A stretch of 64,000 nt of DNA from positions 2,048,001 through 2,112,000 of the forward strand of contig OZ245742.1 in assembly GCA_965227295.1 (NCBI GenBank), read 5' to 3'. This document shows, in pieces, positions 18,731 through 35,147 of this stretch. The position numbers and the translations under genes were made by a program. The notes below the pieces were generated by a model. The model was not told where the DNA came from, did no database searches, and saw only the letters and a program-made list of their open reading frames with translations. The DNA is from Leptonemataceae bacterium (GTDB taxonomy: Bacteria; Spirochaetota; Leptospiria; Leptospirales; Leptonemataceae). Numbering within the stretch: position 1 is the stretch's first letter; the number at the start of each line of letters is the position of its first letter.

Positions 18731-18856
18731 TCCTGTTCCAAAAATGAGGTATATACCGTGCTTATCAACGATATAAACGATGCTCACGATGATTGACGTC
18801 TTTTGATCGCCGGGTTATCATCGCCGAGCATCAATAAAACTTAGCGAAGATCAGTT

Positions 18857-19663
18857 ATGTCCAAAACCCGTCCCGCTGCCCTGGCCGGCACGTTCTACCC
18901 CGCCGATCCCCGCGCGCTGCGCGATGAGGTGGGGGCCTGTCTGGACGCCGCCCCGGAACATCCCGGCGCGCCGGAGGCCGTCATTGCCCCACACGCCGGC
19001 TACATGTACTCCGGTGTCGTCGCCGGCCGGGCCTATCACGCCTGGCGCGGGCTTGCCGGAATCGAACGCGTCATCCTGGCCGGGCCGTGCCATCGCAAAC
19101 CGGTGCGGGGCCTGGCCCTGTCCGGCGCGGATGCCTTCGAGACCCCGCTCGGTTCCGTGGCCGTGGACGTGCCGGCCCGGGAACGCCTGCTGTCTGAGTT
19201 CGGCCCCGAACACCTGCGCATCGACGACGAGGCCCACGCGCACGAGCACAGCCTCGAAGTGCAGCTTCCGTTTATTCAGACGATATTTCCGGGCGCAAAA
19301 ATACTGCCGCTGGGCGTGGGTCGGGGTGGTCCGGACATTTTTCGGGCGGTGCTGGAGCTTTTTCAGGATGATGCGACCCGGGTGGTTGTGAGTTCGGATC
19401 TGAGCCATTTTCACGCGTTCGACGAGGCCCGGCGGCGGGATCGGCGGACCTCGGATCACATCGAGGCCGGGCGGGGCGCGGAGATCGGCTACGAGGACGC
19501 CTGCGGCCGGGACGCCGTGGCCGGGCTGCTGCAATATGCCGCCGGTCGGGGTCTGCGCGCGCTGACGGTGGACCTGCGGAACTCCGGGGACACTGCCGGT
19601 CGCAAGGACCGCGTGGTGGGCTACGGGGCCTATCATCTTACCGCCCGGGCGGAACCGGCGTGA
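18857..19663 (+). CDS. amrB: AmmeMemoRadiSam system protein B (MEMO1 family)
   Basis: RPAALAGTFYP, IAPHAGYMYSG, EHSLEVQLPF, SSDLSHF, VVGYGA. Confidence 0.93.
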   Translation: MSKTRPAALAGTFYPADPRALRDEVGACLDAAPEHPGAPEAVIAPHAGYMYSGVVAGRAYHAWRGLAGIERVILAGPCHRKPVRGLALSGADAFETPLGSVAVDVPARERLLSEFGPEHLRIDDEAHAHEHSLEVQLPFIQTIFPGAKILPLGVGRGGPDIFRAVLELFQDDATRVVVSSDLSHFHAFDEARRRDRRTSDHIEAGRGAEIGYEDACGRDAVAGLLQYAAGRGLRALTVDLRNSGDTAGRKDRVVGYGAYHLTARAEPA

Positions 19664-20283
19664 CCGTCGACGACGAAGCCGTGCTGCTCGCAGCGGCCCG
19701 GCGGTCGATGGAACGCGAGCTGGAGCGCCGGGAGAGCGGGGCGGATCGGCGTGCGGACGCCCTGGACCGGTCGTACGCGGAGGAGGTCGGGCGGGATCGG
19801 CCGGAGCTGCGGGAGCCGGGGGCGAGCTTCGTAACCCTGCGCACGGCGGAAACCGGCAAGCTGCGGGGCTGCATCGGCAGTCTGGAACCGGAACGCCCGC
19901 TGCTGCTCGACGTCTTGCGGAATGCGCGCCGGGCCGCCTTTCACGATCCGCGCTTTCCGGCCCTGGAGCGGGAGGAGTACCAGGCGGGCTTGCATCTCTC
20001 GATCTCCGTGCTCGGCCGTCCGGAGCCCCTGCCGGCGGGCCCGGACGAGGCGGCGTTCCTGAAACGGCTCCGGCCGGGCGTGGACGGCCTGGTGCTCAAA
20101 CACGCCTCGGGACGGGCGACCTTTTTGCCGGCGGTGTGGGAACAGCTTCCGGCCCCGGTGGAATTCTTGCGCCAGCTCAAACGCAAGGCCGGCCTGCCGG
20201 AGGACGCCTGGCCGGCCGACCTCCGTTTCGAGCGTTACGAAACTCGTTCATTCAGTGATGCCGTTAGTATGAAAAGAGATTGA
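19660..20283 (+). CDS. amrA: AmmeMemoRadiSam system protein A (AMMECR1 family)
   Basis: [38 protein letters not shown]. Confidence 0.93.
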
Positions 20284-20320
20284 CGTACCGGGTGCCTTTT
20301 CGATACAACACCTGAATCCG

Positions 20321-20725
20321 ATGTCCTCACGGAACAGTAATCTGAATTTTGGCTCCGGTCCGGACAATACGGACGGCCTCCAACTCAAGCTCACCTTCGA
20401 CGAGGACACGCGCACGGTCTACGGCGAGTACCGTTGCCCGCCGAAGTTCCAGGGCGACGAAGGCAACGTCCATCCCGGCGTCCTGTCCGTAATCCTCGAC
20501 GAGATCATGGCCGCGATCAACGGCGCCATGAATTTCGACACCACCACCGGTGAACTCACCATTCGCTATTTGCAGCCGGCCATGATCGGCGAGAACATGT
20601 ACCTGCGCGGCTGGTTCGTTAAAAAGAACCGTCGCATTGTAGAAAACCGCGCCGAGATCGAAAACGAGATCGGCAAGATCGTCGCGCGCGGCAAAGGCAA
20701 GTACATCGAACGCGAAGAAGACTGA
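20321..20725 (+). CDS. PaaI/hotdog-fold thioesterase
   Basis: [30 protein letters not shown]. Confidence 0.85.
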
Positions 20726-20856
20726 GCGCCTGCGGGAGCGAGGGACGGACGTGTCCGCTTCGAGCGAGTTTGATCACTACGTAAAAGGCTACCCCGAGAT
20801 TCTACAGGCCTGCGCCCGTGTTCTGGACGCGGTCTACGCGCGTTTTCTGATATTTT

Positions 20857-21387
20857 TTGACAGAAACAGTGGTCTCGCCATTTTCGGTAAGGCGGGTTCG
20901 TGCGTTGAAGTCAGTAGAGAAATACTATTGCGAGCTATATGCGGACGAAGATCTGACCGCGCTGCTCAGATTTTTTTCGGAGAATCCTACCAAAATGCTG
21001 CGGGATCGCCCGCTTCAGGTGCTTCAGGCATCGGTTGATCACAGACAGATGATTGTCGTCCGCGCGGAGGATTCTGACCTGATTGTTGGAACGGCCGCGG
21101 TTTTTCAGTTTCTTGACATGCAGTATGTGGAACTCGGTTGCATGAGCCTGGGTTCGGCTGTTCGTGGGCAGCGTTTGCAGAGTGTTTTGATTGCGATGCG
21201 GATTTTGCAAAGCTATCTGCTGGCCGCCCGCCACGTATTCTGCGTGGTGAAAAAATATGAAGCAAAGACTGAGGAGCGGACACGATCTTATAAAAACCTT
21301 TTGCGTGCGAACTTTGAGGAATGGGAACAACCACCTGATGAACTAAAGGCCGCCCGGGCAAAACTCTTAACGTCGGAAAGTGCATAA
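20857..21387 (+). CDS. GNAT-like protein (start uncertain)
   Basis: LIVGTAAV...VELGCMSLGSAVRGQRL resembles GNAT motif A; SYKNLLRANF resembles motif B; lower GC than flanks. Confidence 0.55.
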   Translation: MTETVVSPFSVRRVRALKSVEKYYCELYADEDLTALLRFFSENPTKMLRDRPLQVLQASVDHRQMIVVRAEDSDLIVGTAAVFQFLDMQYVELGCMSLGSAVRGQRLQSVLIAMRILQSYLLAARHVFCVVKKYEAKTEERTRSYKNLLRANFEEWEQPPDELKAARAKLLTSESA

Positions 21388-21394
21388 TTTTACC

Positions 21395-21411
21395 ATGCAA
21401 TTTTATTGCAT
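21395..21411. promoter_or_regulatory. Perfect 7-3-7 palindrome ATGCAAT-TTT-ATTGCAT, candidate operator
   Basis: Seen directly; lies 15 bp upstream of a TTGACG -35-like hexamer (21427) preceding the HTH gene. Confidence 0.5.
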
Positions 21412-21463
21412 TTTGCAACAAAAGGCTTGACGCGGTTGCATTCTGTGCCGAAATTTAAATGTA

Positions 21464-21802
21464 ATGAAAACCCGGGTTCGATCATTAAGCTCCTTGCTTC
21501 AGCGCATTTCGCAGGAGCAGTTGGCGGAGATTCTGGACGTTTTGAATCATCTCGTCAAATCCCCGGACGAAGTGTCAGATGAAGATTTTGTTGCCGCGGT
21601 TCGTGTCTGTAGTGAATTTTTGAATTTCTCGACGCAGGACCTGGCGATAGAGTTTGCCGTTACGCCGAGCACGATCAGTCGCTGGAAAAACGGCAAGAAT
21701 ATGCCGATTCATCTCGCGCGCAAAGCCGTCCTCATGCGAGTGGCGGCGGCTGTTTCTGAACGAATCGAGCTGATGAGAGAAGACGCATCCTCTCGCGCGT
21801 GA
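21464..21802 (+). CDS. XRE/Cro-like HTH protein
   Basis: STQDLAIEFAVTPSTISRWKNGKNMP. Confidence 0.78.
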   Translation: MKTRVRSLSSLLQRISQEQLAEILDVLNHLVKSPDEVSDEDFVAAVRVCSEFLNFSTQDLAIEFAVTPSTISRWKNGKNMPIHLARKAVLMRVAAAVSERIELMREDASSRA

Positions 21803-21883
21803 TATGCGCATCATCCTGTAGATGACGTTTGTTTGCTGTTAGCAATTCCAGGATCGCAGCGGGCCTTTTCCTTTCCGGAGACC

Positions 21884-22780
21884 TTATCTCTTCTTGAGTT
21901 TGAGAAGCACGTACTTCTTCTTTTCCTGGAACGTTTCCGGTCGAACCTTGCCGACTTCTTTTTCCAGCTTGCCGTCGATGTAGTCGCGGATGCGTTGCGT
22001 GAGATAGTAGAGCCGCGGCCGCTTGTGCTTCAGCTTTTCGTAGCCGTAGTGTTTGAGCGGGAAGATGAATCGATTCGCGTACATGGTTACGAACGACAGC
22101 GTCGGCAGGATGTTCGGCGTGATGTCCTGTTCGTACTCCAGGTCCCAGCCGTACTGCTCCGCCGTCTCGTGGAAGTTCTTCAGGTTGTGCGGCTTTTTCG
22201 TGTCGCCCAGACTGAAGTAATCGCAGATGATCCAGTTGCCGCCGGGGGCGATGAGTTCTTCCGTTTTGTTGAACGCCGCCTCGAGCGGAAAGACATACTG
22301 CAACGACTCGGAGTTGATGATGGTGCCGTAGCGTTTCCCGGCTTCGTAGTGTTCGTAGTTGGAATGGTGCGTCGTAAGCTCGGGGTAGTGCTGCTTGATG
22401 TACTCGATTTGATTGAGGTTCGGCGTGAGGCTTTCCACGGGATAGCCGCGGCTGTTCAGCATTTGCGATAATCCACCCAGGCCGCAGCCGACGTCGAGGA
22501 TGGCTTTGTCTTTGTCCTCCACCAGCGCGATGATGTTTTCCCAGTACTGTTTTTGCGCGTCTTCGAAGTCCTGAAAGGAGATGGACTTCGGGTCGACGTC
22601 GACATCCTCGAAGTAGCCGTAGTGCAGCATGTTGTTCGTGAGAACTTTCGAGTAGAGGTAAAGTTCCAGGTCGTAGTTGACCTTGTCCGCCTTGCGGTTC
22701 TTGCGGGCAAAACTTCCGGCTTTGAACCACTGGATGGGATTGAGGAACGGCGTGATGAGCTTCATAATCGGTGGCGCCAT
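21884..22780 (-). CDS. Class I SAM-dependent methyltransferase
   Basis: MLHYGYF, ILDVGCGLGG, IAPGGNWIICDYF. Confidence 0.88.
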   Translation of the reverse strand: MAPPIMKLITPFLNPIQWFKAGSFARKNRKADKVNYDLELYLYSKVLTNNMLHYGYFEDVDVDPKSISFQDFEDAQKQYWENIIALVEDKDKAILDVGCGLGGLSQMLNSRGYPVESLTPNLNQIEYIKQHYPELTTHHSNYEHYEAGKRYGTIINSESLQYVFPLEAAFNKTEELIAPGGNWIICDYFSLGDTKKPHNLKNFHETAEQYGWDLEYEQDITPNILPTLSFVTMYANRFIFPLKHYGYEKLKHKRPRLYYLTQRIRDYIDGKLEKEVGKVRPETFQEKKKYVLLKLKKR

Positions 22781-22849
22781 GGAATTGACGGCGGACGGAT
22801 TCGTCTATTATGATTGTGGCGCGGTGGCGCGGCGGAGGTCAGCGGCGGG

Positions 22850-23841
22850 ATGGATTATGCTCAGCTTTTACAGAACATCGGCGCGATGCACCGAAAGGCC
22901 GACGCGGCGGCGCGCCTGGGTTTGAACGCGGCCGTGCTGGATTCCCGGCGGGAGATCGGCCGGTTGCTCGTCGAGGGCGAGATGGACGGCGCCCTGCGCG
23001 CTCGCTACGGTTCGGAGCTGCTTAAGAATCTTGCAGTTGATCTTAAGGAGACGTTGGGCCCGGGTTACTCGCAGCGCGGCCTGCACATGATGGCGCTGTT
23101 CTTTCGTTTGTTTCGCGGGCGCAGGCTGCGCTACGAGCTGAACTGGACGTCGTATCGGGTGCTGTTGCTCGTGAAAGACGATGCGTTGCGCGGCGTTCGG
23201 AACGTGAGGCGGCGGATTTGCTGTTGTCCACGCGGCAACTGGAAGCGCTGGTTCGGGAGCGCCTGGGCAAAGCGCCGCGCACGTTCGCGTGGGATCGTCC
23301 GGCGGGGGAATTGTTTTCGTTTCGCGTGCGGCGGACGATCGCCGGCTTTCCCACGGCGCATCCGGTGCTGGACCTGGGCTTCGCGTTGTACTTTCGGCCG
23401 GACTGTCCGGAGCTGGATTCGTTCGCGGACGACGAGACGGTGCTGTCGGTTAAAGATTCGGTGAGTGGAAGTTACCGTTTAACGGCCGGCGCCGATCCCG
23501 GCGCGCGGCATTTGTATGCGGCGCAGGTGATGCGCGTGATCGACGGCGATACGTTCCTGGCGTTCATTGATTGCGGCTTCGGCATGATCGTTCGCCAGCG
23601 TTTGCGTTTGCGGCGCGTGGACGCTCCGGAATTGCACGAGCGCGGCGGGAAGGAGGCGCGGGCGTTCGTGGAAGCGCGCTTGCGGCCGCGGCAGGTGGTG
23701 GTGCTGCGGACGTTTCGGACGGATAAGTATGATCGGTATGTTTGTGATGTTTGGTACGGGAAGGCCGGGGCGGATGCGGCGCGTGTGGTGCGGGAGGGCG
23801 TGTTGTTGAATGAGGAGATGGTTGGGTTGGGGTGGGGGTGA
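22850..23841 (+). pseudogene. DUF1016 (YhcG) N-terminal domain fused to thermonuclease (SNase), frameshifted near 23190
   Basis: First frame: EIGRLLVE..RARYG..LLKNLAVDL...GYSQRGL..M..F...LNWTSYRVLL; second frame continues RRSEREAADLLLSTRQLE and has RVIDGDT, RLRLRRVDAPE, DKYDRY. Confidence 0.75.
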
Positions 23842-23842
23842 G

Positions 23843-24460
23843 TTATAGAGAAGACATGACGACGCGAACTTTTCCCTCGATGTTGAATTCCCGCCCAATT
23901 TCTATTGGCTTAAAGTCTGGATTGAGCGACTCCAGCAAACAAATCCCACTATCGAGTTTGCGTATCACCTTTATGAGCGGGGAGCCCTCGTTAACGCAAA
24001 CGACGATATCTCCGTCATTCGCTGCCTGGGCCTTTTCTGCGATTACGATATCTCCGTTGTGTATGCGGGGCACCATTGAGCTACCGCGGGCTTGAACGAT
24101 GAAAGCCCGATCCGGCGGGAAGCCCAAGAGTCTTATGGGAACGGGGATTCGCTCAATAGGATTGCCATCGAGTATCGATCCACTGGGCCCGCACTGAGCA
24201 AGACCGTAGCGATTAACGTATGCAATTGCCTTCTGGATCGGATCACTGAGTATTTGGTAATCTCGAGAATTTCCGGGATTCCGTAGCAAGTAGCCTTTTT
24301 TTTCCAATTGCGTGACGTGATGATGAACGAGATTGGGCGCGGACAATCCCAGCTCTTCCTGTAATTCCCGCATACTCAACGGCTCGTCGATCGTTTCCCT
24401 GAGTAAAGAGAGCAAACGCTTCTGAGTCGGATGCAGCTCGCCTTTCTTTGATCTAGCCAT
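23843..24460 (-). CDS. LexA-family repressor (winged HTH + S24 peptidase)
   Basis: SMRELQEELGLSAPNLVHHHVTQLEKKGYL; AQCG at the cleavage-site position; RGSSM catalytic Ser; LIK catalytic Lys; NPDFKPI. Confidence 0.9.
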   Translation of the reverse strand: MARSKKGELHPTQKRLLSLLRETIDEPLSMRELQEELGLSAPNLVHHHVTQLEKKGYLLRNPGNSRDYQILSDPIQKAIAYVNRYGLAQCGPSGSILDGNPIERIPVPIRLLGFPPDRAFIVQARGSSMVPRIHNGDIVIAEKAQAANDGDIVVCVNEGSPLIKVIRKLDSGICLLESLNPDFKPIEIGREFNIEGKVRVVMSSL

Positions 24461-24991
24461 TTACTAAGTATATGATTAGTGTGTGAGTCGAGCACGCAAT
24501 AGAAAAAGCTTTCTAAGTCTATGAAAAAGTGTACAATAATTTCCTTGCAGTAGTTTTTGTACCACAATAGTGTCCAATTATGTGCAAGAGGCATTTCCCG
24601 CGTTCGAATCCGGATACTTCGGGACGCGATAATTTGGGCTGATTTGTGACCCCAAAAAAATCGCTACTGACGAAAAGTTACATTTTGGCACTCAAGAGGG
24701 GTGATTGCTAATTTTTTTCGAAAAAGAGCCAATCCGTCTTGACATCTCGTGAAAAAAGGAATCATTTTTCGTAGGGACAGGATGCCCTGAAAAAAAGGAA
24801 AGCCCCGGCATGGCCGAGGCTTTGTAGTGCTTACTGGCGCAAAGGCCAATAAAGTTGCTAAAAAAAGACTAAATCGCCCGCCCGCGCCAGGTCAAGCACT
24901 ACATTTCGTTTTTGTTCACCTTGGATAGCCCGTTTGGCTATCCGGGGCGCAGCATACCTGTCTCCAAAATCAACATTTTAGGAGACATAGT

Positions 24992-26701
24992 ATGATTCCA
25001 TCGCTCGTTCTGATCGATCCTAGCCTGGGACCAATCGAGAGAGCCGAAATTGACGAGGCACTGGGCGGTACTCCGTTCAATCTCATCAATTGCGACTCCA
25101 GTCTGACCCTCTGGAAGAGCCGGCAGGCGGACTGGGGTTTTCTTAAAAACCAGCAAATCCGTAAATTCGATTCAGTCATCGCACCGGAGCTCCACTCTGC
25201 GGAAGTCCGTGAGATTTACTTTGCCGGGCTTACTTCCATTCCCACGGCGGTCCATTGGGGTTACCTCTGCGGGCGTATACGCCCTGTCAGAGTTCTCCAG
25301 CGCCATCATCGCACTGGTTCGTGGAAATGGGGGGAGGCTGATTTTTCGCCGAAGCCTCTTTGCAGGCTGCCGCAAGAGGAATATTCAGCCTTTGGCGATG
25401 TTGTTCTGTGTGTAAGCACGTCTCATTCCGTGAATTTGGAAGCGGTTCGTCGGCAGGTGCCGAACGCTATTTACACTGCCGCCATTGAGCTGCGGGAACC
25501 CGACGAAGATGCGATTACTTCGCATGAATACTGCGAGCAAATCGCTGACGAATTCAAGTCTATCTTGGATGCAATAAGTACGCGCATTCCCAGGGCTGGT
25601 CGTATTCATCTCTTTGCGGCTGTTCCCTGCGGCCTCGCGTTTATGTTGGGAGCTCGCATTAGTCCGACGATGCATAAACCAATTCAGACCTACAATTATG
25701 TAGATGGTACTCGTTATGCTCCTGCGATTCCGATTTGTCCGAAGCATGAGGAGCCTTTGGTGGTTTTGCTGTCAGGCGGGGAGTGCGCACGCTTGCGAGA
25801 GATCGCACAGGCTGAGTTAACCGGGCTGTCGCGGTCTTTCCTTAATCTTGGAAAGCATATCGAAGCCGGCGATTGGAGAAAGCAGATTGAGAAAGACTTG
25901 GATCTTGAGATAGTCTCTCCGGACTTTGTGAACTTACCTCCGCTGCATGAGACTGACATTAAACACAGCCGTGTTTCAACGAAGGCCGATGACCCCAGGT
26001 TTTTTGATAGGGAGACTCTGGAGTGGAGTGTGTCGGACGAATTACTTGCGATCCTAAGTCGTAACTTCACCGATTCGGACCGCCTCAGACGGGCTCTTCG
26101 TATGTTTTTCATACATGAAGCGCTGCATCCTCATCAGTCGATTACCTCCTATAACTACGGGGGACTCGGGAATTTTACGAATAGTGCCGCCGCTGCGGAC
26201 TACGTTGCGGATGTATACGCGTTGGGTTACGAATACTCGTATACATGCATGTCTCAGGAATGCAATCAAAGGGAATTCCTCAGGGAAGCGATAGAAGTGG
26301 CGATTGAGACAATCTGGGCCTTCAATCACGATAATCAAACGCCTCTCGACCGGCTGGAACTACGCGTTTTTCAAAGGTTACTTACCTGGTACTGGGTACT
26401 TACGAAAATACTGAATTCGGAAGGCTCCCAATTTCAAGAGCTTTTTCGATCCCATTATATCGAGATTATCGGGTTACCGCTGATCGTAGACGACGGCCGA
26501 GTTCACGTTTCGTTACGGCCGGCTGAGATGCGCCTTGAGCTTGGCGCCATCGTCAAAGGTCGTTTTGAACGGTATAGCGAGAATAGCAACCGGCACTTAT
26601 CTAACTTGGTCTCTGCTGTGAGTGAGAGAGGTCATGAACAAATAAAGCATGAGATGCAGGCAATTCATCCTGCTCTGACTACTAAAGGAGTTGCCATATG
26701 A
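24992..26701 (+). CDS. CBASS effector: N-terminal SAVED domain + C-terminal HExxH metallopeptidase-like domain
   Basis: SAVED-like motifs IYFAGLTSIPTAVHWGY, LQRHH..GSWKW, LCVSTSHSV, IHLFAAVPCGLAFMLGARI; HEALH at aa 375-379; overlaps the CD-NTase start (ATGA). Confidence 0.8.
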   Translation: MIPSLVLIDPSLGPIERAEIDEALGGTPFNLINCDSSLTLWKSRQADWGFLKNQQIRKFDSVIAPELHSAEVREIYFAGLTSIPTAVHWGYLCGRIRPVRVLQRHHRTGSWKWGEADFSPKPLCRLPQEEYSAFGDVVLCVSTSHSVNLEAVRRQVPNAIYTAAIELREPDEDAITSHEYCEQIADEFKSILDAISTRIPRAGRIHLFAAVPCGLAFMLGARISPTMHKPIQTYNYVDGTRYAPAIPICPKHEEPLVVLLSGGECARLREIAQAELTGLSRSFLNLGKHIEAGDWRKQIEKDLDLEIVSPDFVNLPPLHETDIKHSRVSTKADDPRFFDRETLEWSVSDELLAILSRNFTDSDRLRRALRMFFIHEALHPHQSITSYNYGGLGNFTNSAAAADYVADVYALGYEYSYTCMSQECNQREFLREAIEVAIETIWAFNHDNQTPLDRLELRVFQRLLTWYWVLTKILNSEGSQFQELFRSHYIEIIGLPLIVDDGRVHVSLRPAEMRLELGAIVKGRFERYSENSNRHLSNLVSAVSERGHEQIKHEMQAIHPALTTKGVAI

Positions 26702-27801
26702 ACAGAATTTATAACCGCGAATATTTGGAAGAAATTCTCGATCGCATTGGGGCGGCGCTGGATCTCCCCCCGGGGCGGGAGGACAATATTAAGAATCGGT
26801 ATAAGAGCGTTCAAGAATACCTTTGTGGGGATGAATTTTTTAGATCAAGAGATTTGAATGTTTATCCTCAAGGCTCTTTTCGGCTTGGTACGGTGAATAG
26901 CGGTTTTAACGGAGAAGACGTCGATCTTGACTTTGTCCTGGAAATCGTTTCAGAAGAATTCGAAGTCGGCCCCATGAGACTGTATAGTCTTGTCCATGAA
27001 AGACTTCTGGGGAATGAGCATTATCGTTCAAAGGTAAAGACCAAAAATCGCTGCCTCCAATTGCAATACAAGGGTCAGTTTCATATGGATATTCTGCCTG
27101 CCATTGCTGTCCCAGGTAGAAGTGATACGAGCATCCTTATCCCCGATCGTAAGCTTCAGTCATGGACTGCAAGTAATCCGCGCGGCTATGCCGTTTGGTT
27201 CGAGAATCAGACCATTCAAATGCGTGAGAACTTCTTGTCTATGAAGGCTGAGGCTCTGGCCGGAGATCACCAAGTGGAGCCAGTGGCGGATCGCGAAACG
27301 CATGAACAAAAACTCCCACTCAAGAAAGCGATTCGGCTAATGAAGCGGCATCGAGATATTTACTTCGCGAATAAACCGAAGTTGAAACCGATTAGTATCG
27401 TGTTAACTACGCTGGCATCTGAGAATTATGCGGGAGATCTTGATGTGTATCCGACCTTAATGAACATTCTGAACAGTCTCTGTCAGAAGTACTCGGGTCT
27501 TTGGGGGCCGCCAGAAATCAAAAACCCGACGAATGCAAATGAAAACTTTGCTGAAAAATGGATCGCGGAGCCACACTTGTTCCGGGCTTTTCAAGAGTAT
27601 ATCAAGTATCTACGGGACTGGTGGGCGACCTTGCCGGAAAGATGGCCGGAAGACTTGGGACATTCGCTAAGTGAACACCTGGGCGATGGGGTGCGCAGGG
27701 TCTACGAAGAATATCAGAGAAACCTCGCGGATCGCGAGAGCTTCGGAGCTCCGGCCGTAATAAACTCAAAGGAAAGAACAAAGCCATGGCGAATCCAGTG
27801 A
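26698..27801 (+). CDS. cGAS/DncV-like nucleotidyltransferase (CD-NTase, SMODS)
   Basis: YPQGSFRLGT, DVDLD, FHMDILPA, SNPRGYAVWF, IRLMKRHRD, PISIVLTTL, NPTNANENFAEKW. Confidence 0.93.
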   Translation: MNRIYNREYLEEILDRIGAALDLPPGREDNIKNRYKSVQEYLCGDEFFRSRDLNVYPQGSFRLGTVNSGFNGEDVDLDFVLEIVSEEFEVGPMRLYSLVHERLLGNEHYRSKVKTKNRCLQLQYKGQFHMDILPAIAVPGRSDTSILIPDRKLQSWTASNPRGYAVWFENQTIQMRENFLSMKAEALAGDHQVEPVADRETHEQKLPLKKAIRLMKRHRDIYFANKPKLKPISIVLTTLASENYAGDLDVYPTLMNILNSLCQKYSGLWGPPEIKNPTNANENFAEKWIAEPHLFRAFQEYIKYLRDWWATLPERWPEDLGHSLSEHLGDGVRRVYEEYQRNLADRESFGAPAVINSKERTKPWRIQ

Positions 27802-28478
27802 TTTCCCGTGCGCGGCGCTCTACGTTTCTCCGGAAAGAGTTGGCTGTTGCAAAGATGTTGCTAAAAAAAGCAAAGGTGACTTGGGGCAGTCAGGTGTCTG
27901 TGCGCGGATGGTTTCATTTTAGCACGCGCGTCGATGGCAGGGTTATTGAGGACCTGTACGAAATTCGAATAGTTTTTCCGGAACAATACCCAGGCTTGTG
28001 GCCAGTCGCTTATGAATTACAGAATCGAGTGACGTCTCAATTCCATCGCAACCCTGACGAGTCACTATGCCTCGGCTCGAATCTTGATTTGCATCGCATC
28101 TATAGTAGGGATAAAGGGTTTGAGAATTTTATCAAAGAGATGCTTACTCCTTTTTTAGCCGGGCATAGTTTCTGGAAGCGTTATGGCGTTGCGCCCTTCG
28201 GAGAAAGGGCGCATGGAGGAGATGGCGTTTGGCAGGCTTACTTGGATTTGTATTCGGAGGAAAGTCTGGATACAGTCCTTGGTGCTGTTGAATGGGCATT
28301 AAAGAATCGTGAAGAACGTGGTCATGTCGTTTGTCCCTGTGTGCTGAAGGCCAAAATGCGTGAATGCGGTCAGAGCGGTTGTAGGTTGTTCGCAGGGCTA
28401 CAGCTAATCCAATCTATGCACCCAGCTCTGTTGCGCCAGGATCTCGATGCACTACGTAGTTCATTGATCCGGGAGTAG
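27786..28478 (+). CDS. Prokaryotic E2 (ubiquitin-conjugating-like) CBASS ancillary protein with degenerate SEC-C-like tail
   Basis: YEIRIVFPEQYP..WP, FHRNPDESLCLG (putative catalytic Cys), PFGERAHG, CPC..K.KMREC. Confidence 0.78.
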   Translation: MANPVISRARRSTFLRKELAVAKMLLKKAKVTWGSQVSVRGWFHFSTRVDGRVIEDLYEIRIVFPEQYPGLWPVAYELQNRVTSQFHRNPDESLCLGSNLDLHRIYSRDKGFENFIKEMLTPFLAGHSFWKRYGVAPFGERAHGGDGVWQAYLDLYSEESLDTVLGAVEWALKNREERGHVVCPCVLKAKMRECGQSGCRLFAGLQLIQSMHPALLRQDLDALRSSLIRE

Positions 28479-28633
28479 GTAAACGAATCCCCGCGCCAGG
28501 GATGCGCGAGCCCGAAGCAGCCCACCTACTCGATCCCAAACAATCTTTCAAAAGAACCTGAGCCCACTGCCGACTCTCGCGGTAGCGCACAAACGTCCCG
28601 AAACACAGTCATCGAAATGCGGATAAACACAGA

Positions 28634-29650
28634 TTGACGCAGGCCCCCCGCCGGCCGAAACTCAGAGAATCGAGGAGCATCCAATTTTGCACGTGCGCGT
28701 GCGAAATTCGGGAAGGAGAAACATCCACGATCGCCGAACTCCTCGCCCCTGATGACACAAATCGAATCACATTTTCATTGACTCAAAACCGCAACTCGTA
28801 CAATGGACGAAGCCCGCGAGGTGCCGCCACGCAATACGACATCGCCAGCAAAGAGTTCATGCACATCAGCGGGCGGGAGATCCTACAAAAGTTCCTGCAA
28901 ACGAAGCCGACGCTGGTCGAAGCAATGGAAGAGTTACCGACCGAGACGGTAAACGTCCGGCGATCCGATGCACCGGTCCGTATGATGCAGGCGGACGGGG
29001 CGGAGCGGATCGTGCTCGTGGAGTACCAGACGAACTGGGAGAGTGAGTTACCGATGCGCCTCGTAGAGTATCACGCGCGGTATTGGCTAAAGTACCGGGT
29101 GCCGGTGGATACGTTGGTTTTTTTGATCCGACCTCATCAGGCGGCGAACGCAGAGTATGCGAATCATGCCATCCGATTTCAATATCGGCTGATTAAACTC
29201 TGGGAGTTGCCGGCCGCGGAGTGGATCGAGGCCGAATCGGCGTTGTTGCCGTTTGTCCCCTTAATGAAGGACGGCGGGCAGTACGTCGAGCGAGCCCGGG
29301 AGCGGATACAGAAAGATGCAAAACTCAGTGCCGAAGAAAAAACGAGTTTATTAACGGTGCTATGCGTGTATACCGGGATGCACGATCCCGAGCAGGCGCG
29401 GGACATCCTCAGAAAGGCAGGCCAACTTATGATAGAATCACCCGTCTACGATTGGATTCGGCAAGAGGGCGTCGAAGAAGGCCGTGAAGAAGGCCGTGAA
29501 GAGGGCCGTGAAGAGGGCCGTGAAGAAGGCAAGCTGGAAACTGCGGCGCGTATGCTGGAACACGGCCTGGACCTGGCGACGGTCCTGAAAGTAACGGGCC
29601 TGTCGGAAGAATTGCTGCGCGCTCGCGGCGTGTGGCCGGGCGAATCTTGA
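28634..29650 (+). CDS. Rpn-family (RpnC/YadD-like) PD-(D/E)XK nuclease; true start probably downstream of 28634
   Basis: YDIASKEF, RRSD, VLVEYQT, MRLVEYH, YRLIKLWE, LLPFVPLM, EEGR repeats and ETAARML..GL....VLKVTGLSEE tail. Confidence 0.85.
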   Translation: MTQAPRRPKLRESRSIQFCTCACEIREGETSTIAELLAPDDTNRITFSLTQNRNSYNGRSPRGAATQYDIASKEFMHISGREILQKFLQTKPTLVEAMEELPTETVNVRRSDAPVRMMQADGAERIVLVEYQTNWESELPMRLVEYHARYWLKYRVPVDTLVFLIRPHQAANAEYANHAIRFQYRLIKLWELPAAEWIEAESALLPFVPLMKDGGQYVERARERIQKDAKLSAEEKTSLLTVLCVYTGMHDPEQARDILRKAGQLMIESPVYDWIRQEGVEEGREEGREEGREEGREEGKLETAARMLEHGLDLATVLKVTGLSEELLRARGVWPGES

Positions 29651-29708
29651 TTTCGCGTATCGATGAATACCGGAGCCGTCAGAATAGCAGTAGGTCTCGA
29701 TGCCATGC

Positions 29709-30863
29709 TGAAATAGTCAAGATTCCATCTGACACTCCGATATAATTTGTATCGGAGGAAAGAGATGACAGCAGAACAAAAAATCGTAAAGCACCGGGTG
29801 GGCATCTTGAGGCTGGCCCGTACTCTGAATAACGTTGCAGAGGCTTGCCGGGTGATGGGCGTATCACGCGATACGTTCTACCGGTATCAGCGGTTGTACG
29901 AGACCGGAGGCGAAGAGGCCCTGAAGGATCTCACGCGGCGCAAGCCGAACAAGAAGAACCGGATTCCGGCGGATGTGGAAGACGCGGTGATCGAGTTCAC
30001 GTTCGAGAAGCCGGCGCACGGTCAATTGCGCGTGTCGAATGAGCTGCGCAAGCGCGGCGTTTCGATCTCACCGGGCGGCGTGCGTCAGGTCTGGTTGCGG
30101 CACGACATGGAGACGTTCAAGAAGCGTCTGAAGGCCCTGGAAGCCCGCGTCGCGCAAGAGGGGATCATTCTCACCGAGGCACAGGTCGCGGCGCTTGAGA
30201 AAGGCCGCCAGGACAAAGAAGCGCACGGCGAGGTCGAATCGCACCACCCCGGCTATCTGGGCTCGCAGGACACGTATTACGTGGGCAATATCAAGGGCGT
30301 GGGGCGGATCTACCAGCAGACCTTCATCGACACGTACGCTAAGGTCGGCTTTGCAAAACTTTACGATCGCAAGAACGCACTGACGGCGGCCGACTTGCTG
30401 AACGATCGTGTGTTGCCGTTCTACGCGGACTACAACATCCCGCTGCTGCGCGTGCTCACCGATCGCGGCACGGAGTACTGCGGCAAGCCGGAGAATCACG
30501 AGTACGAGTTGTACCTCGCGATGGAGGACATCGATCACACCAAAACCAAAGCGCGGCATCCGCAAACGAACGGCGTCTGCGAACGCTTTCACAAGACGAT
30601 TCAGGAAGAATTCTACGCCGTCGCGTTTCGCAAGAAACTCTACTCAAGCATCGAGGAGCTGCAAGCCGATCTGGATGAATGGATGCTCGAGTATAACCAG
30701 GAACGGACGCACAGCGGCAAGTACTGCTTCGGCAAGACGCCGGCGCAAACGTTCGCTGAATCCATCGCCGTGGCGCGTGAAAAGATGCTGCATAAACAGC
30801 ATCAGGTATCGACCTGATCATATCTGACAGGCAGGAGTGTCAGATCGGGTGTTGGCTAGTACA
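29709..30863 (+). mobile_element. IS481-family insertion sequence, complete
   Basis: 30-bp imperfect terminal inverted repeats (23/30; 29709-29738 and 30834-30863) and 6-bp target duplication CCATGC at 29703-29708 and 30864-30869. Confidence 0.95.
29765..30817 (+). CDS. IS481-family DDE transposase
   Basis: NVAEACRVMGVSRDTFYRY HTH; QDTYYVG, LTDRGTEYCG, PQTNGVCERFHKT; GGAGG RBS. Confidence 0.95.
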   Translation: MTAEQKIVKHRVGILRLARTLNNVAEACRVMGVSRDTFYRYQRLYETGGEEALKDLTRRKPNKKNRIPADVEDAVIEFTFEKPAHGQLRVSNELRKRGVSISPGGVRQVWLRHDMETFKKRLKALEARVAQEGIILTEAQVAALEKGRQDKEAHGEVESHHPGYLGSQDTYYVGNIKGVGRIYQQTFIDTYAKVGFAKLYDRKNALTAADLLNDRVLPFYADYNIPLLRVLTDRGTEYCGKPENHEYELYLAMEDIDHTKTKARHPQTNGVCERFHKTIQEEFYAVAFRKKLYSSIEELQADLDEWMLEYNQERTHSGKYCFGKTPAQTFAESIAVAREKMLHKQHQVST

Positions 30864-30865
30864 CC

Positions 30866-32323
30866 ATGCTCTTTCGGAGCGTGCTGGCGTATCTGTATGA
30901 GCAGGGCGTCTTTCCGAACTCCTATACTGATGCCGATACCGGTGCCACGGTAAACATCGACGAACCCTGGCTCGATGTCCGGGACGGCGCCACGGAGGAC
31001 CCCGCGCTCGTGCTGCGATTGACCGGGACTCTGAGTAACAATGGAGCCGACGCGGAGTTCGAGTACGAGTTTGATCTGGCTCCCTTCGCGCGTTCCATTG
31101 CGAATCAGGCTCCGGTCGCCGCGCTACAGTTGCGTCCCATGCCGGATGCTCCCCCGGATCCATTAAGAGAACGTCTCGAAGCGTCAGTCGGCAATGTTCT
31201 GAGCCAATTCGATATTCCCATCTTTGATCCTTTGATCGGCCTTCTTGAAGCTTCTCATTTTCCCGAGGGCAACCCGCCCTCGAGGGACGAATGGACGGCT
31301 GAGTTTTATCTGGGACGTGTTGGGAATCTGGAACACCGGGATATCCTGTTCCGGGCCGGACGACCGGACATTCCTGAAATACGCCAGACGACGATGCTGC
31401 AGACGGTGCCGGCCCTCATGGCCACGCTCGCTTTACCGGGGGAGAGTGCAATTCTGCCCGGAAGAGCCTCGATCGTACCCCGGGCGACGGGGATTCAGAT
31501 CCTGCTCAGTCGTCCCGCCATGGATGCCCTGCTCCAGGCGCAGGCCGATGCTCGCGTGGGTACCCGGGTACAGGGGGCCACGATCCAACGGAATCGCATG
31601 TTGATGCACGACCTCGGCATCGAGATTCGCGGGCGGGCCAGGCATTCAGAAAAAGCTACGACCATTGATTGGGACGGCGTCTTGCTCATCATGTTTCGTA
31701 AGCGATTCGTTCACCGGATTGACGGGCGCATCGGCTGGCACGACGGCTTCGTATCTGTATTCGCTTCGGGTATTGATGTCGACGTGGATTATGATTGGTG
31801 GGTTGATCTACTTCGCGGTTTGAGCGGTTCTCTTTTGTGGGCCTTCCATCTGATCATGGAAAAGGAGGCCTTCCGGAAGGCCGAAGAGGCGCCCGACGTC
31901 GTGCGTTCCGCTTTCCGGGACCAGGTCAGCGGCTCGTTGCGAGCGATGATGGCGGCCGCGGCCGGCTTGAGTAACCTGGACGCCGCGCCGTTCCTGACCT
32001 TCGGTCACGACGCCTGGGTGCTCGAAGGCCACTATACGATGAGCCTCATCGCTTTCGCCGGATTGACGAAGACGGAAATCGTCGAAGTGCAGCACGACGT
32101 ATTCGACGTCGAAGGCGCCGAAGGACAATCGGTGGGCTTGCTGAAGATCGGCACGGGACACTTGCTGCATCCGGAAGAAGCGGGGCGTTTGATGAAGGCG
32201 GATCTCCTGCGAATCCCCGGGCATCACGGCGTCGAAGCTGAATACGGTTTTTACGTTCGTTCGAATCCCAACGAGACCGGCGACGACAATCTTGTAGACC
32301 CGAACCTGATTCACGAAAAGTAG
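30866..32323 (+). CDS. Hypothetical protein with DUF3892-like C-terminus; original 5' end (29663-29708) separated by the IS481
   Basis: 485-aa ORF; C-terminal YVRSNPNETGDDNL; removing the IS restores an in-frame MNTGAVRIAVGLDA-MLFRSV. Confidence 0.7.
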   Translation: MLFRSVLAYLYEQGVFPNSYTDADTGATVNIDEPWLDVRDGATEDPALVLRLTGTLSNNGADAEFEYEFDLAPFARSIANQAPVAALQLRPMPDAPPDPLRERLEASVGNVLSQFDIPIFDPLIGLLEASHFPEGNPPSRDEWTAEFYLGRVGNLEHRDILFRAGRPDIPEIRQTTMLQTVPALMATLALPGESAILPGRASIVPRATGIQILLSRPAMDALLQAQADARVGTRVQGATIQRNRMLMHDLGIEIRGRARHSEKATTIDWDGVLLIMFRKRFVHRIDGRIGWHDGFVSVFASGIDVDVDYDWWVDLLRGLSGSLLWAFHLIMEKEAFRKAEEAPDVVRSAFRDQVSGSLRAMMAAAAGLSNLDAAPFLTFGHDAWVLEGHYTMSLIAFAGLTKTEIVEVQHDVFDVEGAEGQSVGLLKIGTGHLLHPEEAGRLMKADLLRIPGHHGVEAEYGFYVRSNPNETGDDNLVDPNLIHEK

Positions 32324-32394
32324 CGCCCAATCGCCACAAAATAGCCCCTGAAAATTGTAGCGCCCTCATCCCGCGCGCACCAATCTGACGCGCG

Positions 32395-33882
32395 ATGAAA
32401 TTCCTTTCGAAATTCTTCTCAATGAAATTATACACGAAGATTCTCCTCGGCATGGCCGCCGGCGTGGTCGTCGGCTGGGTCCTGCATACCACCGGCCTCG
32501 AATCCTGGACACTCTACACCGACTACGTCGGCACGCTGTTCATTCGACTCATTAAAATGGTCGTGGTACCGCTGGTGCTCGCGTCGCTAATTCTCGGCGC
32601 GGCAAACTTAGGCAAGGACGATCCGAAGCGCGTCGGCGGGCTCGGGCTCAAGGCCATCCTGTTCTTCATGACGACGACGGTCTTCGCCGTTACCATCGGC
32701 GTGGTTCTCGCGAACGTCGTGAAGCCGGGCAAGTTCCTGCCGCCGGATACGCGCAACGCCCTCGTCGAGAAGTATCGTGATGACGCGACGACGAAGCTTG
32801 CCGGGGACGATTCCACGCTCTGGAAAGAATTGAATCGCCTGGCCGGCATGATGCGTGAGTCCGAGACTCTCGACGGTGAGGCCGAGAACGAGCTGGAAGA
32901 GTACCAGGAAGAGTTAACAAAAAAAGTCGAAATGGCCGAACGGCCGCCGGGGGCCGGAAAGTCGGAGTTGCAGAAAGTCCTGGATATCATCGTCAAAATG
33001 GCACCGACGAATCCAGTGGAGGCCCTGGCCCGCGGGGACATGCTCGCCATCATTTTCTTTGCGCTCTTTTTCGGGATCTGTCTGGCGTTGGTGATGCGCG
33101 GCGGTGATGAAGACGACCCGGACGACCTGCACGGCAGTGACACTCCGCGCGAGTATGCGCGTTTTCTGTACAACGCCGTGGGCGGCTTGAACGAGGTCGT
33201 CATCAAGATGGTCAACCTGGCCATGGAGGTCGCCCCGTACGGTGTCTTCGCTTTGATGACCGGTGTCGTGGCGACCATGGGCCTGGATATACTCATTCCC
33301 CTGGCCTACTACGGTGTTGTCGTCGTGGCCGGCCTGTTGTTGCATCTTACGATCACGTACATGTCGATCATCATCTTCTACGTGCGCACGAGTCCGCTCA
33401 AGTTCTTGCGCGCCATCAAAGAAGCGGTGGTCCTCGGTTTCTCGACGTCGTCTTCGAGCGCAACGCTGCCGGTATCCATGCGTGTCGCGCGGCAGAACCT
33501 CGGTGTCTCCAACGAGGTGTCGTCGTTCGTGCTGCCCCTCGGCGCCACGATCAACATGGACGGCACGGCGTTGTATCAGGGCGTGGCGGCCATCTTCATC
33601 GCCCAGGTCTACGGCATGGATCTCAGCACTTCGCAGCAATTAACCATGATCCTCACGGCCACGCTCGCGTCGATCGGCGCGGCCGGTGTACCGGGAGCGG
33701 GCATGATCACCCTGGCCGTTGTCCTGGAAACGGCGGACGTCCCGCTCGAAGGCATCGCGTTGATCTTCGGCCTCGATCGTTTGCTCGACATGTTCCGTAC
33801 TTCGGTGAACATTGTCGGTGATTTGACGTGCACCACGGTCATGGCGAAGTCCGAGGGCGAAACGGTGAGCGTGCAAACGTGA
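32395..33882 (+). CDS. Dicarboxylate/amino acid:cation (DAACS, GltP-like) symporter
   Basis: FIRLIKMVVVPLV, FSTSSSSATLP, LPLGATINMDGTALY, SIGAAGVPG, DRLLDMFRTSVN. Confidence 0.95.
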   Translation: MKFLSKFFSMKLYTKILLGMAAGVVVGWVLHTTGLESWTLYTDYVGTLFIRLIKMVVVPLVLASLILGAANLGKDDPKRVGGLGLKAILFFMTTTVFAVTIGVVLANVVKPGKFLPPDTRNALVEKYRDDATTKLAGDDSTLWKELNRLAGMMRESETLDGEAENELEEYQEELTKKVEMAERPPGAGKSELQKVLDIIVKMAPTNPVEALARGDMLAIIFFALFFGICLALVMRGGDEDDPDDLHGSDTPREYARFLYNAVGGLNEVVIKMVNLAMEVAPYGVFALMTGVVATMGLDILIPLAYYGVVVVAGLLLHLTITYMSIIIFYVRTSPLKFLRAIKEAVVLGFSTSSSSATLPVSMRVARQNLGVSNEVSSFVLPLGATINMDGTALYQGVAAIFIAQVYGMDLSTSQQLTMILTATLASIGAAGVPGAGMITLAVVLETADVPLEGIALIFGLDRLLDMFRTSVNIVGDLTCTTVMAKSEGETVSVQT

Positions 33883-33925
33883 AAAAATCGCTCGTTCCAG
33901 GCGCGCGTTTCGTCCATAGTGTAGT

Positions 33926-35143: not shown

Positions 35144-35147
35144 GCAA

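What the first reader, a model, noticed from the sequence alone, without database searches (positions are those of the whole stretch)
24992..28478. CBASS with a SAVED-HExxH metallopeptidase-like effector (top candidate)
Seen: three overlapping genes, effector, CD-NTase and E2. The 569-aa effector has SAVED motifs in the first ~250 aa and a helical C-terminal region with FFIHEALH (H375-E376-H379) followed by D403-Y-V-A-D, matching the HExxH...(E/D)xxAD spacing of zincin peptidases such as ImmA/IrrE, CapP and Lit. No nuclease, TIR or transmembrane effector is present. Established: SAVED binds cyclic oligonucleotides; well-studied fusions are Cap4, Cap5 (HNH), TIR, 2TM, Lon (CalpL) and CHAT. Inference: a cyclic-nucleotide-activated zinc protease, an effector type I do not know to be experimentally characterised. 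Its target could be an essential host protein or the adjacent LexA-like repressor.
Basis: partly seen in the sequence, partly recalled or inferred. Interest (0 to 1): 0.85.

Follow-up and report, generated by a model that had tools for sequence, protein, structure and literature searches.

The report
CBASS operon with SAVED-HExxH effector
This is an intact three-gene anti-phage alarm system whose killing protein joins a signal-sensing domain to a probable zinc protease; databases already list this effector class, but I found no study that has tested it.

Summary
Three overlapping + strand genes encode a 569-aa SAVED effector, a CD-NTase and an E2-only protein: a type II-short CBASS. They lie in a low-GC, IS-bounded insertion that two same-genus genomes lack.

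The effector's C-terminal domain (aa ~255-569) matches no Pfam or NCBIfam model. It does match PADLOC's CBASS models 'Effector/Peptidase' (E 4.6e-99, full length) and 'SAVED_peptidaseM48', so the class is already catalogued.

An exhaustive search found 455 cluster representatives. Conservation in a 150-row alignment:
- H375: 142 of 146
- E376 and H379: 145 of 146 each
- D403: 149 of 149
- D407: 148 of 149

Homologues serve type II, II-short and III CBASS, with no conserved partner gene. A LexA-like neighbour occurs at 3 of 58 loci, so it is more likely a regulator than the target.

No paper or solved structure was found. Verdict: a new member of a known but untested effector class; a zinc protease is probable, not shown.

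The parts
24992..26701 (+). CBASS effector, 569 aa: N-terminal SAVED sensor plus C-terminal HExxH domain
   Evidence: ORF. PADLOC PDLC00754 'Effector/Peptidase' E 4.6e-99, aa 45-558 on profile positions 53-592 of 598.
25157..25732 (+). SAVED domain (aa 56-247), presumed cyclic-oligonucleotide sensor
   Evidence: Pfam PF18145 E 7.3e-36. NCBIfam NF033611 E 8.3e-34. PDB sequence matches only to SAVED parts of solved proteins, best 7rwk at 1e-08.
25754..26698 (+). C-terminal HExxH domain (aa 255-569): zincin-like helical core (aa ~260-480) plus a small beta-rich subdomain and two helices (aa ~490-567)
26114..26128 (+). HEALH motif (H375, E376, H379), inside the long helix aa 362-382 of the model
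   Evidence: H 142 of 146, E 145 of 146, H 145 of 146.
26198..26212 (+). DYVAD motif (D403, Y404, D407) in the next long helix (aa 396-419). D403 is the candidate third metal ligand; D407 is the candidate His-orienting residue.
   Evidence: D403 149 of 149, D407 148 of 149. It aligns in register with E.EAD of M48 and Lit and with E.eAN of M78 in hhalign. The ligand roles are inferred.
26698..27801 (+). CD-NTase (367 aa), signal synthase
   Evidence: Pfam SMODS 2e-14 and DncV-like NTFase 1.8e-07. PADLOC cyclase PDLC00815 1.7e-88. G59-S60, D74xD76 and D131 present.
27786..28478 (+). E2-only ancillary protein (230 aa), H87...C95 motif, Cys-rich C-terminal stretch at aa 183-199
   Evidence: PADLOC E2 PDLC00871 8.7e-42, no Pfam hit. 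Motif positions.
23843..24460 (-). Divergent LexA-like S24 repressor (205 aa); candidate DNA-damage-responsive regulator of the operon, not a core CBASS part
   Evidence: Pfam Peptidase_S24 3e-19 and LexA_DNA_bind 1.7e-12. NCBIfam lexA at 88.8 bits, below the 110.95 cut-off. Homologues near 3 of 58 loci.
24959..24987 (.). Inverted repeat TGTCTCCAAAA / TTTAGGAGACA (11-nt arms, 7 nt between) overlapping the effector's ribosome-binding site; function unknown

Best explanation
This is a type II-short (E2-only) CBASS anti-phage operon carried on a horizontally acquired, IS-bounded insertion.

Proposed mechanism:
1. On infection, the CD-NTase, primed by the E2 protein, makes a cyclic oligonucleotide.
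2. The effector's N-terminal SAVED domain binds it. By analogy with other SAVED effectors, binding drives assembly.
3. Assembly switches on the C-terminal domain, a divergent zincin-like metallopeptidase. H375 and H379 would hold the metal, E376 would act as the general base, D403 would be the third ligand and D407 would orient a histidine.
4. The protease then cleaves proteins not encoded in the operon, either host or phage, and this stops phage production.

Shown here: gene identities, operon architecture, domain boundaries, motif conservation, a confident all-new model with zincin-like topology, and use of the same effector family by type II, II-short and III CBASS.

Inferred: metal binding, peptidase chemistry, activation by oligomerisation, the ligand and the substrate.

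The divergent LexA-like gene is most simply a DNA-damage-responsive transcriptional switch. It occupies the place that CapH/CapP-like genes hold in homologous loci.
For: System:
- SAVED, CD-NTase and E2 assignments.
- CD-NTase active-site residues and the E2 HxN...C motif.
- Overlapping genes.

Family:
- 455 representatives at E <= 1e-3 and 190 at E <= 1e-30.
- Near-invariant HExxH and DYxAD.

Topology from the model: a long backing helix, three short strands, a helix bearing HExxH, then a helix bearing DYxAD. This is the order seen in zincins (established knowledge).

Fold:
- Core-only model: again 20 of 50, and 9 of the top 11.

Profiles:
- hhalign against M48, M78 and U49 gives P 0.032, 0.044 and 0.097. 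Reversed-template nulls give 0.18, 0.22 and 0.32.
- Both motifs are aligned in register each time.
- RNase III gives P 0.32 against a null of 0.33.

Other:
- ESM-Atlas features place the C-domain nearest Peptidase_U49 and M48-named clusters: score 0.90, and 21 of 30 hits carry that family set. This is a lead only.
- Among 58 loci the effector sits in type III CBASS (26), type II (9), E2-only operons (4 plus the window), and beside a CD-NTase alone or with other genes (5 plus the window).
- PADLOC's curators reached the same label independently.
Against: - No significant similarity to any peptidase was found by any method.
  - Foldseek: 0 hits at E <= 1e-3 in PDB, on both the whole and core models, and 0 in BFVD.
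  - hhalign probabilities are 0.6-1.6%, whereas U49-M48, U49-M78 and M78-M48 score 95%, 82% and 40% with the same alignments.
  - None of 85 members hits a peptidase Pfam at E <= 10.
- I could not read model coordinates, so the convergence of H375, H379 and D403 on one site is unverified.
- This copy departs from the family at two near-invariant positions. E400 is E in 143 of 149 but Ala here. P488 is P in 149 of 150 but His here.
- No substrate candidate emerges from gene neighbourhoods.
Confidence: 0.6

Rival explanations
1. The HExxH domain is a metal-dependent enzyme acting on something other than protein, such as a nucleotide, nucleic acid, lipid or cell-wall precursor. The system would then be a CBASS with a new non-protease hydrolase or oxidase effector.
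For: - No significant relationship to any peptidase family.
- A near-invariant basic cluster could bind phosphate: R458 147 of 150, the next position R in 135 of 150 (Val in this copy), and R462 149 of 150.
- Foldseek's top, non-significant rows for the whole C-domain were RNase III proteins in both PDB and BFVD.
- An Fe/pterin enzyme appears among the VIA rows.
Against: - The RNase III rows have probability 0.06-0.09 and TM 0.11-0.14. They vanish when the C-terminal subdomain is removed.
- RNase III has no profile support: P 0.32 against a null of 0.33.
- Zincin peptidases dominate both VIA lists, 20 of 50 each.
- The HExxH plus acidic-xxx-D pair on consecutive helices is the classical gluzincin/aspzincin arrangement (established knowledge).
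Confidence: 0.2
2. The effector is a regulatory protease, as CalpL is. On signal binding it cleaves one dedicated regulator, here the adjacent LexA-like repressor, and so triggers a transcriptional response rather than cell death.
For: - A LexA-like S24 repressor lies divergently 531 nt upstream.
- SAVED-protease signalling cascades exist: CalpL and SAVED-CHAT, seen in the search listings.
Against: - LexA-like homologues are near only 3 of 58 loci. One of those is a 70-aa fragment at a locus edge.
- No other gene is conserved across type II, II-short and III contexts.
- S24 repressors cleave themselves and need no external protease (established knowledge).
- CapH/CapP-like regulator clusters occur within the fetched flanks at 18 of 58 loci, which points to a regulator role for genes upstream of these operons.
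Confidence: 0.07
3. This particular copy is a weakened or inactive effector in a decaying island, even if the family as a whole is active.
For: - E400A: only 5 of 149 rows have Ala at this position.
- P488H: 1 of 150 rows.
- The best homologue is only 31% identical.
- The island holds gene fragments (DUF1016_N only) and an IS.
- A same-order relative carries a copy with an internal TAA stop.
Against: - The reading frame is intact, with a good ribosome-binding site, and is translationally coupled to intact CD-NTase and E2 genes.
- H375, E376, H379, D403, D407, R458 and R462 are all retained.
- Two otherwise typical members, P0008 and P0027, also have Ala at position 400.
- The model is confident, pLDDT 91.4.
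Confidence: 0.1

Closest known systems
PADLOC CBASS effector models PDLC00754 ('Effector / Peptidase') and PDLC02018 ('SAVED_peptidaseM48')
   Same: Full-length match: E 4.6e-99, aa 45-558 on profile positions 53-592 of 598. Same SAVED-plus-HExxH architecture and the same CBASS context.
   Different: The best homologue found by sequence search is only 31% identical, and this copy has Ala at 400 and His at 488. The 'M48' label is not borne out here: no PF01435 hit in 85 members, hhalign probability 1.6%, and motif spacing of 23 against 50-75 in 29 of 30 sampled M48 proteins.
E2-only (type II-short) CBASS of Serratia marcescens (bioRxiv 10.1101/2022.05.25.493364; passages read)
   Same: CD-NTase plus an E2-only protein plus a SAVED effector. 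The E2 carries a His...Cys pair (H87/C101 there, H87/C95 here). The CD-NTase has a Gly near its C-terminus: SFG at 348-350 here, and NFG or AFG in 8 homologues.
   Different: That system's effector is a 2TM-SAVED membrane protein and it also carries an exonuclease. Here the effector is soluble with an HExxH domain. Whether G350 is the conjugation site was not tested.
ImmA/IrrE (Pfam Peptidase_M78, including CapP) zinc peptidases
   Same: HExxH followed 21-33 residues later by an acidic-xx-A-[DN] motif on the next helix, against 22-26 in this family. hhalign puts both motifs in register.
   Different: No PF06114 hit. hhalign probability 1.2%, P 0.044. The proposed third ligand is Asp, not Glu. 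The domain is about twice as large and has an extra beta-rich C-terminal subdomain.
Lit (Peptidase_U49), the e14 phage-exclusion protease of E. coli. That it cuts EF-Tu is recalled, not read here.
   Same: An abortive-infection HExxH protease of about 300 aa, the size of this C-domain. The nearest named ESM-Atlas clusters carry U49 (score 0.90; 21 of 30 hits carry that family set). Motifs align in register.
   Different: hhalign probability 0.6%, P 0.097. Spacing is 16 residues in 66 of 77 U49 proteins against 23 here. Lit is stand-alone and peptide-triggered, not nucleotide-gated.
SAVED-fused proteases of type III CRISPR: CalpL (Lon-SAVED) and SAVED-CHAT (seen in the search listings)
   Same: A SAVED sensor gating a protease.
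   Different: Those use serine (Lon) and cysteine (CHAT) catalytic folds and have dedicated operon-encoded substrates. Here the domain is a metallo-type HExxH domain and no conserved partner gene exists.

Membership tests
CBASS, type II-short (E2-only) | CD-NTase with intact active site | tested here: met
   Pfam SMODS 2e-14; PADLOC cyclase 1.7e-88. GS 59-60, DxD 74-76 and D131 present.
CBASS, type II-short (E2-only) | Effector with a cyclic-oligonucleotide sensor domain in the same operon | tested here: met
   SAVED E 7.3e-36, and the genes overlap.
CBASS, type II-short (E2-only) | E2-like ancillary gene without E1 or JAB | tested here: met
   PADLOC E2 8.7e-42. No E1 or JAB domain among the 18 ORFs between 19660 and 35143 scanned with Pfam.
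CBASS, type II-short (E2-only) | Protects against phage through nucleotide signalling | not testable with these tools
   Needs phage assays.
SAVED-HExxH CBASS effector family (PADLOC PDLC00754) | Full-length match to the family profile | tested here: met
   E 4.6e-99, profile positions 53-592 of 598.
Zincin metallopeptidases (gluzincin or aspzincin type) | Conserved HExxH on a helix | tested here: met
   H, E, H in 142, 145 and 145 of 146 rows. The motif lies in the helix at aa 362-382.
Zincin metallopeptidases (gluzincin or aspzincin type) | Third acidic metal ligand on the following helix | tested here: inconclusive
   D403 is invariant in 149 of 149 rows and lies in the next long helix. The geometry could not be checked because coordinates were not readable.
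Zincin metallopeptidases (gluzincin or aspzincin type) | Zincin fold | tested here: inconclusive
Zincin metallopeptidases (gluzincin or aspzincin type) | Binds zinc and cleaves peptide bonds | not testable with these tools
   Needs biochemistry.
Peptidase M48 (PF01435) | Matches the family profile | tested here: not met
   0 of 85 members hit PF01435 at E <= 10. hhalign probability 1.6%.
Peptidase M48 (PF01435) | HExxH to ExxAD spacing typical of the family | tested here: not met
   50-75 residues in 29 of 30 sampled M48 proteins, against 23 here.
Peptidase M78 / ImmA-IrrE / CapP (PF06114) | Matches the family profile | tested here: not met
   0 of 85 members hit it. hhalign probability 1.2%.
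Peptidase M78 / ImmA-IrrE / CapP (PF06114) | HExxH followed about 20-35 residues later by acidic-xx-A-[DN] | tested here: met
   23 residues here; 21-33 in 10 of 17 sampled M78 proteins.
Peptidase U49 / Lit (PF10463) | Matches the family profile | tested here: not met
   0 of 85 members hit it. hhalign probability 0.6%. The ESM feature similarity of 0.90 is a lead only.

The most novel reading that the evidence does not exclude
The C-terminal domain founds a zincin-like peptidase family of its own. It is absent from Pfam and NCBIfam, has no solved structure, and is not detectably related at profile level to M48, M78 or Lit. It would be the metalloprotease arm of CBASS: a cyclic-oligonucleotide-gated zinc protease that aborts infection by cutting one conserved host or phage protein, Lit-style, rather than by degrading DNA, membranes or NAD. 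The same module is also fused to other sensor or adaptor domains outside CBASS, for example EAD11.
Probability: 0.35. Interest if true: 0.75.

Novelty: new member of a known kind. Interest (0 to 1): 0.5.

Why it matters
CBASS effectors studied so far act on DNA, membranes or nucleotides such as NAD. A nucleotide-gated metalloprotease would add proteolysis to that list and raises a concrete question: which protein must be cut to stop a phage?

The family is sizeable, with 190 cluster representatives at E <= 1e-30. It spans three CBASS types, has a confident predicted structure and clear point-mutation targets (H375, E376, H379, D403). It is therefore directly testable.

This particular locus is one divergent example, not the discovery of the class. 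Its added interest is the E2-only context and a LexA-type switch in the place of CapH/CapP.

Tried and rejected
Fold and profile searches:
- Foldseek against PDB (whole C-domain and core) and against BFVD found no match at E <= 1e-3.
- The recurring weak RNase III rows were followed up with an RNase III profile: P 0.32, equal to the reversed null of 0.33. They disappeared for the core-only model. Rejected.
- PDB sequence and profile searches matched only SAVED parts. Nothing matched the C-domain; the best E was 0.19, a chance row.
- A Pfam scan of 85 members at E <= 10 found no peptidase family.
- hhalign against M48, M78 and U49 was not significant.

Other sequence searches:
- A viral-contig scan found no relative: 39 pattern matches, 0 confirmed.
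- Rfam on 20000-31000 gave only a sub-threshold miRNA row, treated as chance.
- ARAGORN found no tRNA in 18000-36000, despite a T-loop-like TTCGAATCC at 24603.

Papers:
- Nine searches found no study of a SAVED-metallopeptidase.
- Millman 2020, Makarova 2020 and Burroughs 2015, which probably describe the class, are not held. What they say is unknown to me.

Earlier findings of this scan: nothing on this genome or sequence.

Not run or not possible:
- I ran no complex prediction, because I claim no specific binding pair.
- I could not inspect model coordinates; none were laid in the script box.
Full report
WHAT IS THERE

One search lists three overlapping + strand ORFs: 24992-26701 (569 aa), 26698-27801 (367 aa) and 27786-28478 (230 aa). 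An AGGAG ribosome-binding site lies 7 nt before the first ATG.

- First protein: Pfam finds SAVED at aa 56-247 (E 7.3e-36).
- Second protein: Pfam finds SMODS and DncV-like nucleotidyltransferase domains. PADLOC calls it an oligonucleotide cyclase (1.7e-88). It keeps GS 59-60, DxD 74-76 and D131.
- Third protein: no Pfam hit, but PADLOC calls it E2 (8.7e-42). It has an H87...C95 motif.

No E1, JAB, HORMA or TRIP13 gene is nearby. This is therefore a type II-short (E2-only) CBASS.

A divergent gene at 23843-24460 (-) encodes a LexA-like protein, with Peptidase_S24 at 3e-19 and LexA_DNA_bind at 1.7e-12. It scores below NCBIfam's LexA cut-off, 88.8 against 110.95 bits.

SETTING

- GC falls to 0.46-0.53 across 24000-28500, against about 0.60-0.63 on either side.
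- In two same-genus genomes the left flank is syntenic up to about window 20740. Nothing between there and about 32400 matches, except a 150-nt IS end at about 30713-30862.
- The stretch also holds an HTH gene, a methyltransferase, a DUF1016_N fragment, an SNase-like ORF, a 338-aa unknown and an rve-type transposase at 29747-30817.
- The effector's C-domain was found in 2 of 41 related genomes searched. One is the window's own genome. The other is a same-order genome whose copy has an internal TAA.

The operon is acquired cargo.

THE EFFECTOR FAMILY

Beyond SAVED, Pfam and NCBIfam see nothing. PADLOC matches the whole protein to PDLC00754 'Effector/Peptidase' (4.6e-99) and to PDLC02018 'SAVED_peptidaseM48' (6.7e-32). 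The class is therefore already in a curated defence database.

The word-indexed search found 7 non-self proteins, of which 4 are relatives over most of the length, at 31% identity or less. A profile of five C-domains, run exhaustively, found 455 representatives at E <= 1e-3, 345 at 1e-10 and 190 at 1e-30. Most are 570-620 aa, with the C-domain starting near residue 270.

Conservation in a 150-row alignment:
- H375: 142 of 146
- E376: 145 of 146
- H379: 145 of 146
- D403: 149 of 149
- Y404: 144 of 149
- D407: 148 of 149
- R458: 147 of 150
- R462: 149 of 150

Four full-length members have lost the first His (P0092, P0101, P0130, P0148), and P0115 has a shifted motif. The window's copy is atypical at two positions: Ala where 143 of 149 have E400, and His where 149 of 150 have P488.

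IS IT A ZINCIN PEPTIDASE?

For:

- The AlphaFold2 model of aa 251-569 is confident (pLDDT 91.4, pTM 0.91). It shows a long helix, three short strands, a helix carrying HExxH (aa 362-382) and then a helix carrying DYxAD (aa 396-419). That is the order of elements in zincins (established knowledge). A beta-rich subdomain and two helices follow.
- A second model of the core alone (aa 255-480, pLDDT 89.0) again gave 20 of 50, and 9 of the top 11.
- hhalign against alignments I built from genome hits put HExxH on HExxH, and DYxAD on E.EAD or E.eAN, each time. The alignments were M48 (30 sequences), M78 (17 sequences) and Lit/U49 (77 sequences). P values were 0.032, 0.044 and 0.097, against reversed-template nulls of 0.18, 0.22 and 0.32.
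- The motif spacing is 23 here and 22-26 in 136 of 153 family proteins. That fits M78 (21-33) better than U49 (16 in 66 of 77) or M48 (50-75).
- ESM-Atlas features put the C-domain nearest U49 and M48-named clusters at 0.90, which the tool rates as a lead only.

Against:

- None of this is statistically significant.
- Foldseek found nothing at E <= 1e-3 in PDB or BFVD.
- hhalign probabilities are 0.6-1.6%. The same alignments relate U49 to M48 at 95%, U49 to M78 at 82% and M78 to M48 at 40%.
- None of 85 members hits any peptidase Pfam at E <= 10.
- I could not read coordinates to check the metal-site geometry.

Foldseek's weak RNase III rows were tested and dismissed.

My reading is that this is a very divergent zincin-like domain that is not a member of M48, M78 or U49. 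Peptidase chemistry is probable, about 0.6, but unproven.

CONTEXT ELSEWHERE

57 genome loci were fetched, mostly from Bacteroidota and Myxococcota by record title. Their ORFs were clustered and one representative per cluster was named with PADLOC.

Counting the window, of 58 loci:
- 26 have CD-NTase, HORMA and TRIP13 upstream of the effector (type III). A further 3 show TRIP13 only.
- 9 have CD-NTase, E1-E2 and JAB (type II). A further 1 shows JAB only. One locus, L093, has both a type III and a type II operon.
- 4 have an E2-only gene of one cluster. The window's own E2 did not join that cluster.
- 6, including the window, have the effector followed by a CD-NTase. In Myxococcota these often sit beside Ser/Thr kinase genes.
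- 9 show no context, mostly on short contigs.

CapH/CapP-like clusters lie within the fetched flanks at 18 loci. LexA-like homologues lie at 3. No other gene is shared across the CBASS types, so no operon-encoded substrate is evident.

Sixteen of 30 odd-length family members lack SAVED: 13 have no Pfam match at all, 2 have only sub-threshold hits, and 1 carries EAD11. Fourteen non-SAVED members, 13 of them from this set, still match the C-terminal half of PDLC00754. This suggests a portable effector module, although some may be truncated metagenome calls.

THE LEXA-LIKE GENE

Its rarity beside homologues argues against it being the substrate. It lies divergently upstream of the operon, a place that CapH/CapP-like genes also take beside some homologous operons (for example L062 and L081). 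That position suggests a regulator.

Earlier notes of this scan report LexA-type repressors beside other CBASS operons (e1-1004497, e1-1334568, e1-2121081). These are unchecked AI notes and serve as a lead only.

LITERATURE

Nine full-text searches found no experimental work on a SAVED-metallopeptidase.

I read passages of the following:
- the E2-CBASS preprint, which describes E2 Cys/His-dependent conjugation of the cyclase and a 2TM-SAVED effector
- a type III effector review
- a type II CBASS paper
- a Myxococcus defence-island paper
- a CBASS review

None of them mentions this effector. The three papers most likely to describe the class are not held, so a prior description beyond the PADLOC labels cannot be excluded.

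VERDICT

The class is already catalogued, and the LexA-as-target idea is unlikely. This is a new, divergent member of a known, experimentally untested effector class.

Noticed in passing
window 20740-30862: Low-GC insertion that two same-genus genomes lack. It carries an HTH gene, a methyltransferase (21884-22780 -), a DUF1016_N fragment (22814-23464 +), an SNase-like ORF (23218-23841 +), the LexA-like gene, the CBASS operon, a 338-aa unknown (28634-29650 +) and an rve transposase (29747-30817 +). The IS end also matches contig ends in one relative.
   Followed up: partly
window 24799-24823: A strong terminator-like hairpin with a T-run on the minus strand (11 pairs) lies in the 531-nt gap between the LexA-like gene and the effector, with no annotated minus-strand gene ending there. 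It could mark an antisense or small RNA opposite the effector's 5' end. Rfam found nothing credible.
   Followed up: partly
window 24598-24613: A palindromic stretch contains TTCGAATCC, like a tRNA T-loop, but ARAGORN finds no tRNA in 18000-36000. It may be a remnant attachment site.
   Followed up: partly
window 28332-28382 (E2 aa 183-199): The E2 protein ends with a Cys-rich CPC...CxxxxC stretch reminiscent of a SEC-C metal-binding motif; the name is recalled, not tested. An earlier unchecked note (e1-1059294) mentions an E2-like SEC-C protein in another E2-only CBASS.
   Followed up: no
window 27739-27801 (CD-NTase aa 348-367): The CD-NTase has SFG 18-20 residues before its end. Eight homologues from E2-only or effector-first loci have NFG or AFG 3-7 residues before theirs. 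Eight of the 9 from E1-E2/JAB loci end in ...SA or ...QA. Gly350 may be a processed conjugation site.
   Followed up: no
P0115, P0100, P0109, P0117, P0129, P0136, P0144, P0150, P0152 (library proteins): These carry the HExxH C-domain without SAVED. One has an EAD11 adaptor domain and a degenerate motif. Others have 60-190 unassigned N-terminal residues. The module may serve other conflict systems.
   Followed up: partly
L136 (G012:C12:13660-14574, -): A same-order relative has a copy of the C-domain interrupted by a TAA stop, about 2.2 kb from a Peptidase_M78 match (G012:C12:16807-17166, L047). It is possibly a decayed CBASS with a CapP-like regulator.
   Followed up: no
L056, L060, L061, L063, L094, L099: In Myxococcota-type loci the effector and CD-NTase pair is flanked by large Ser/Thr kinase genes (PADLOC 'kinase' C3a189 and PD-T4-6-like), and in L094 and L099 by a 279-322-aa unknown.
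   Followed up: no
L093: One Fluviicola MAG contig carries a type III and a type II CBASS operon in tandem, each ending in a copy of this effector family.
   Followed up: no
model residues 240-317 (effector aa ~490-567): The beta-rich C-terminal subdomain with two helices has no assigned fold. Foldseek's weak RNase III/dsRBD-type rows depended on it.
   Followed up: partly
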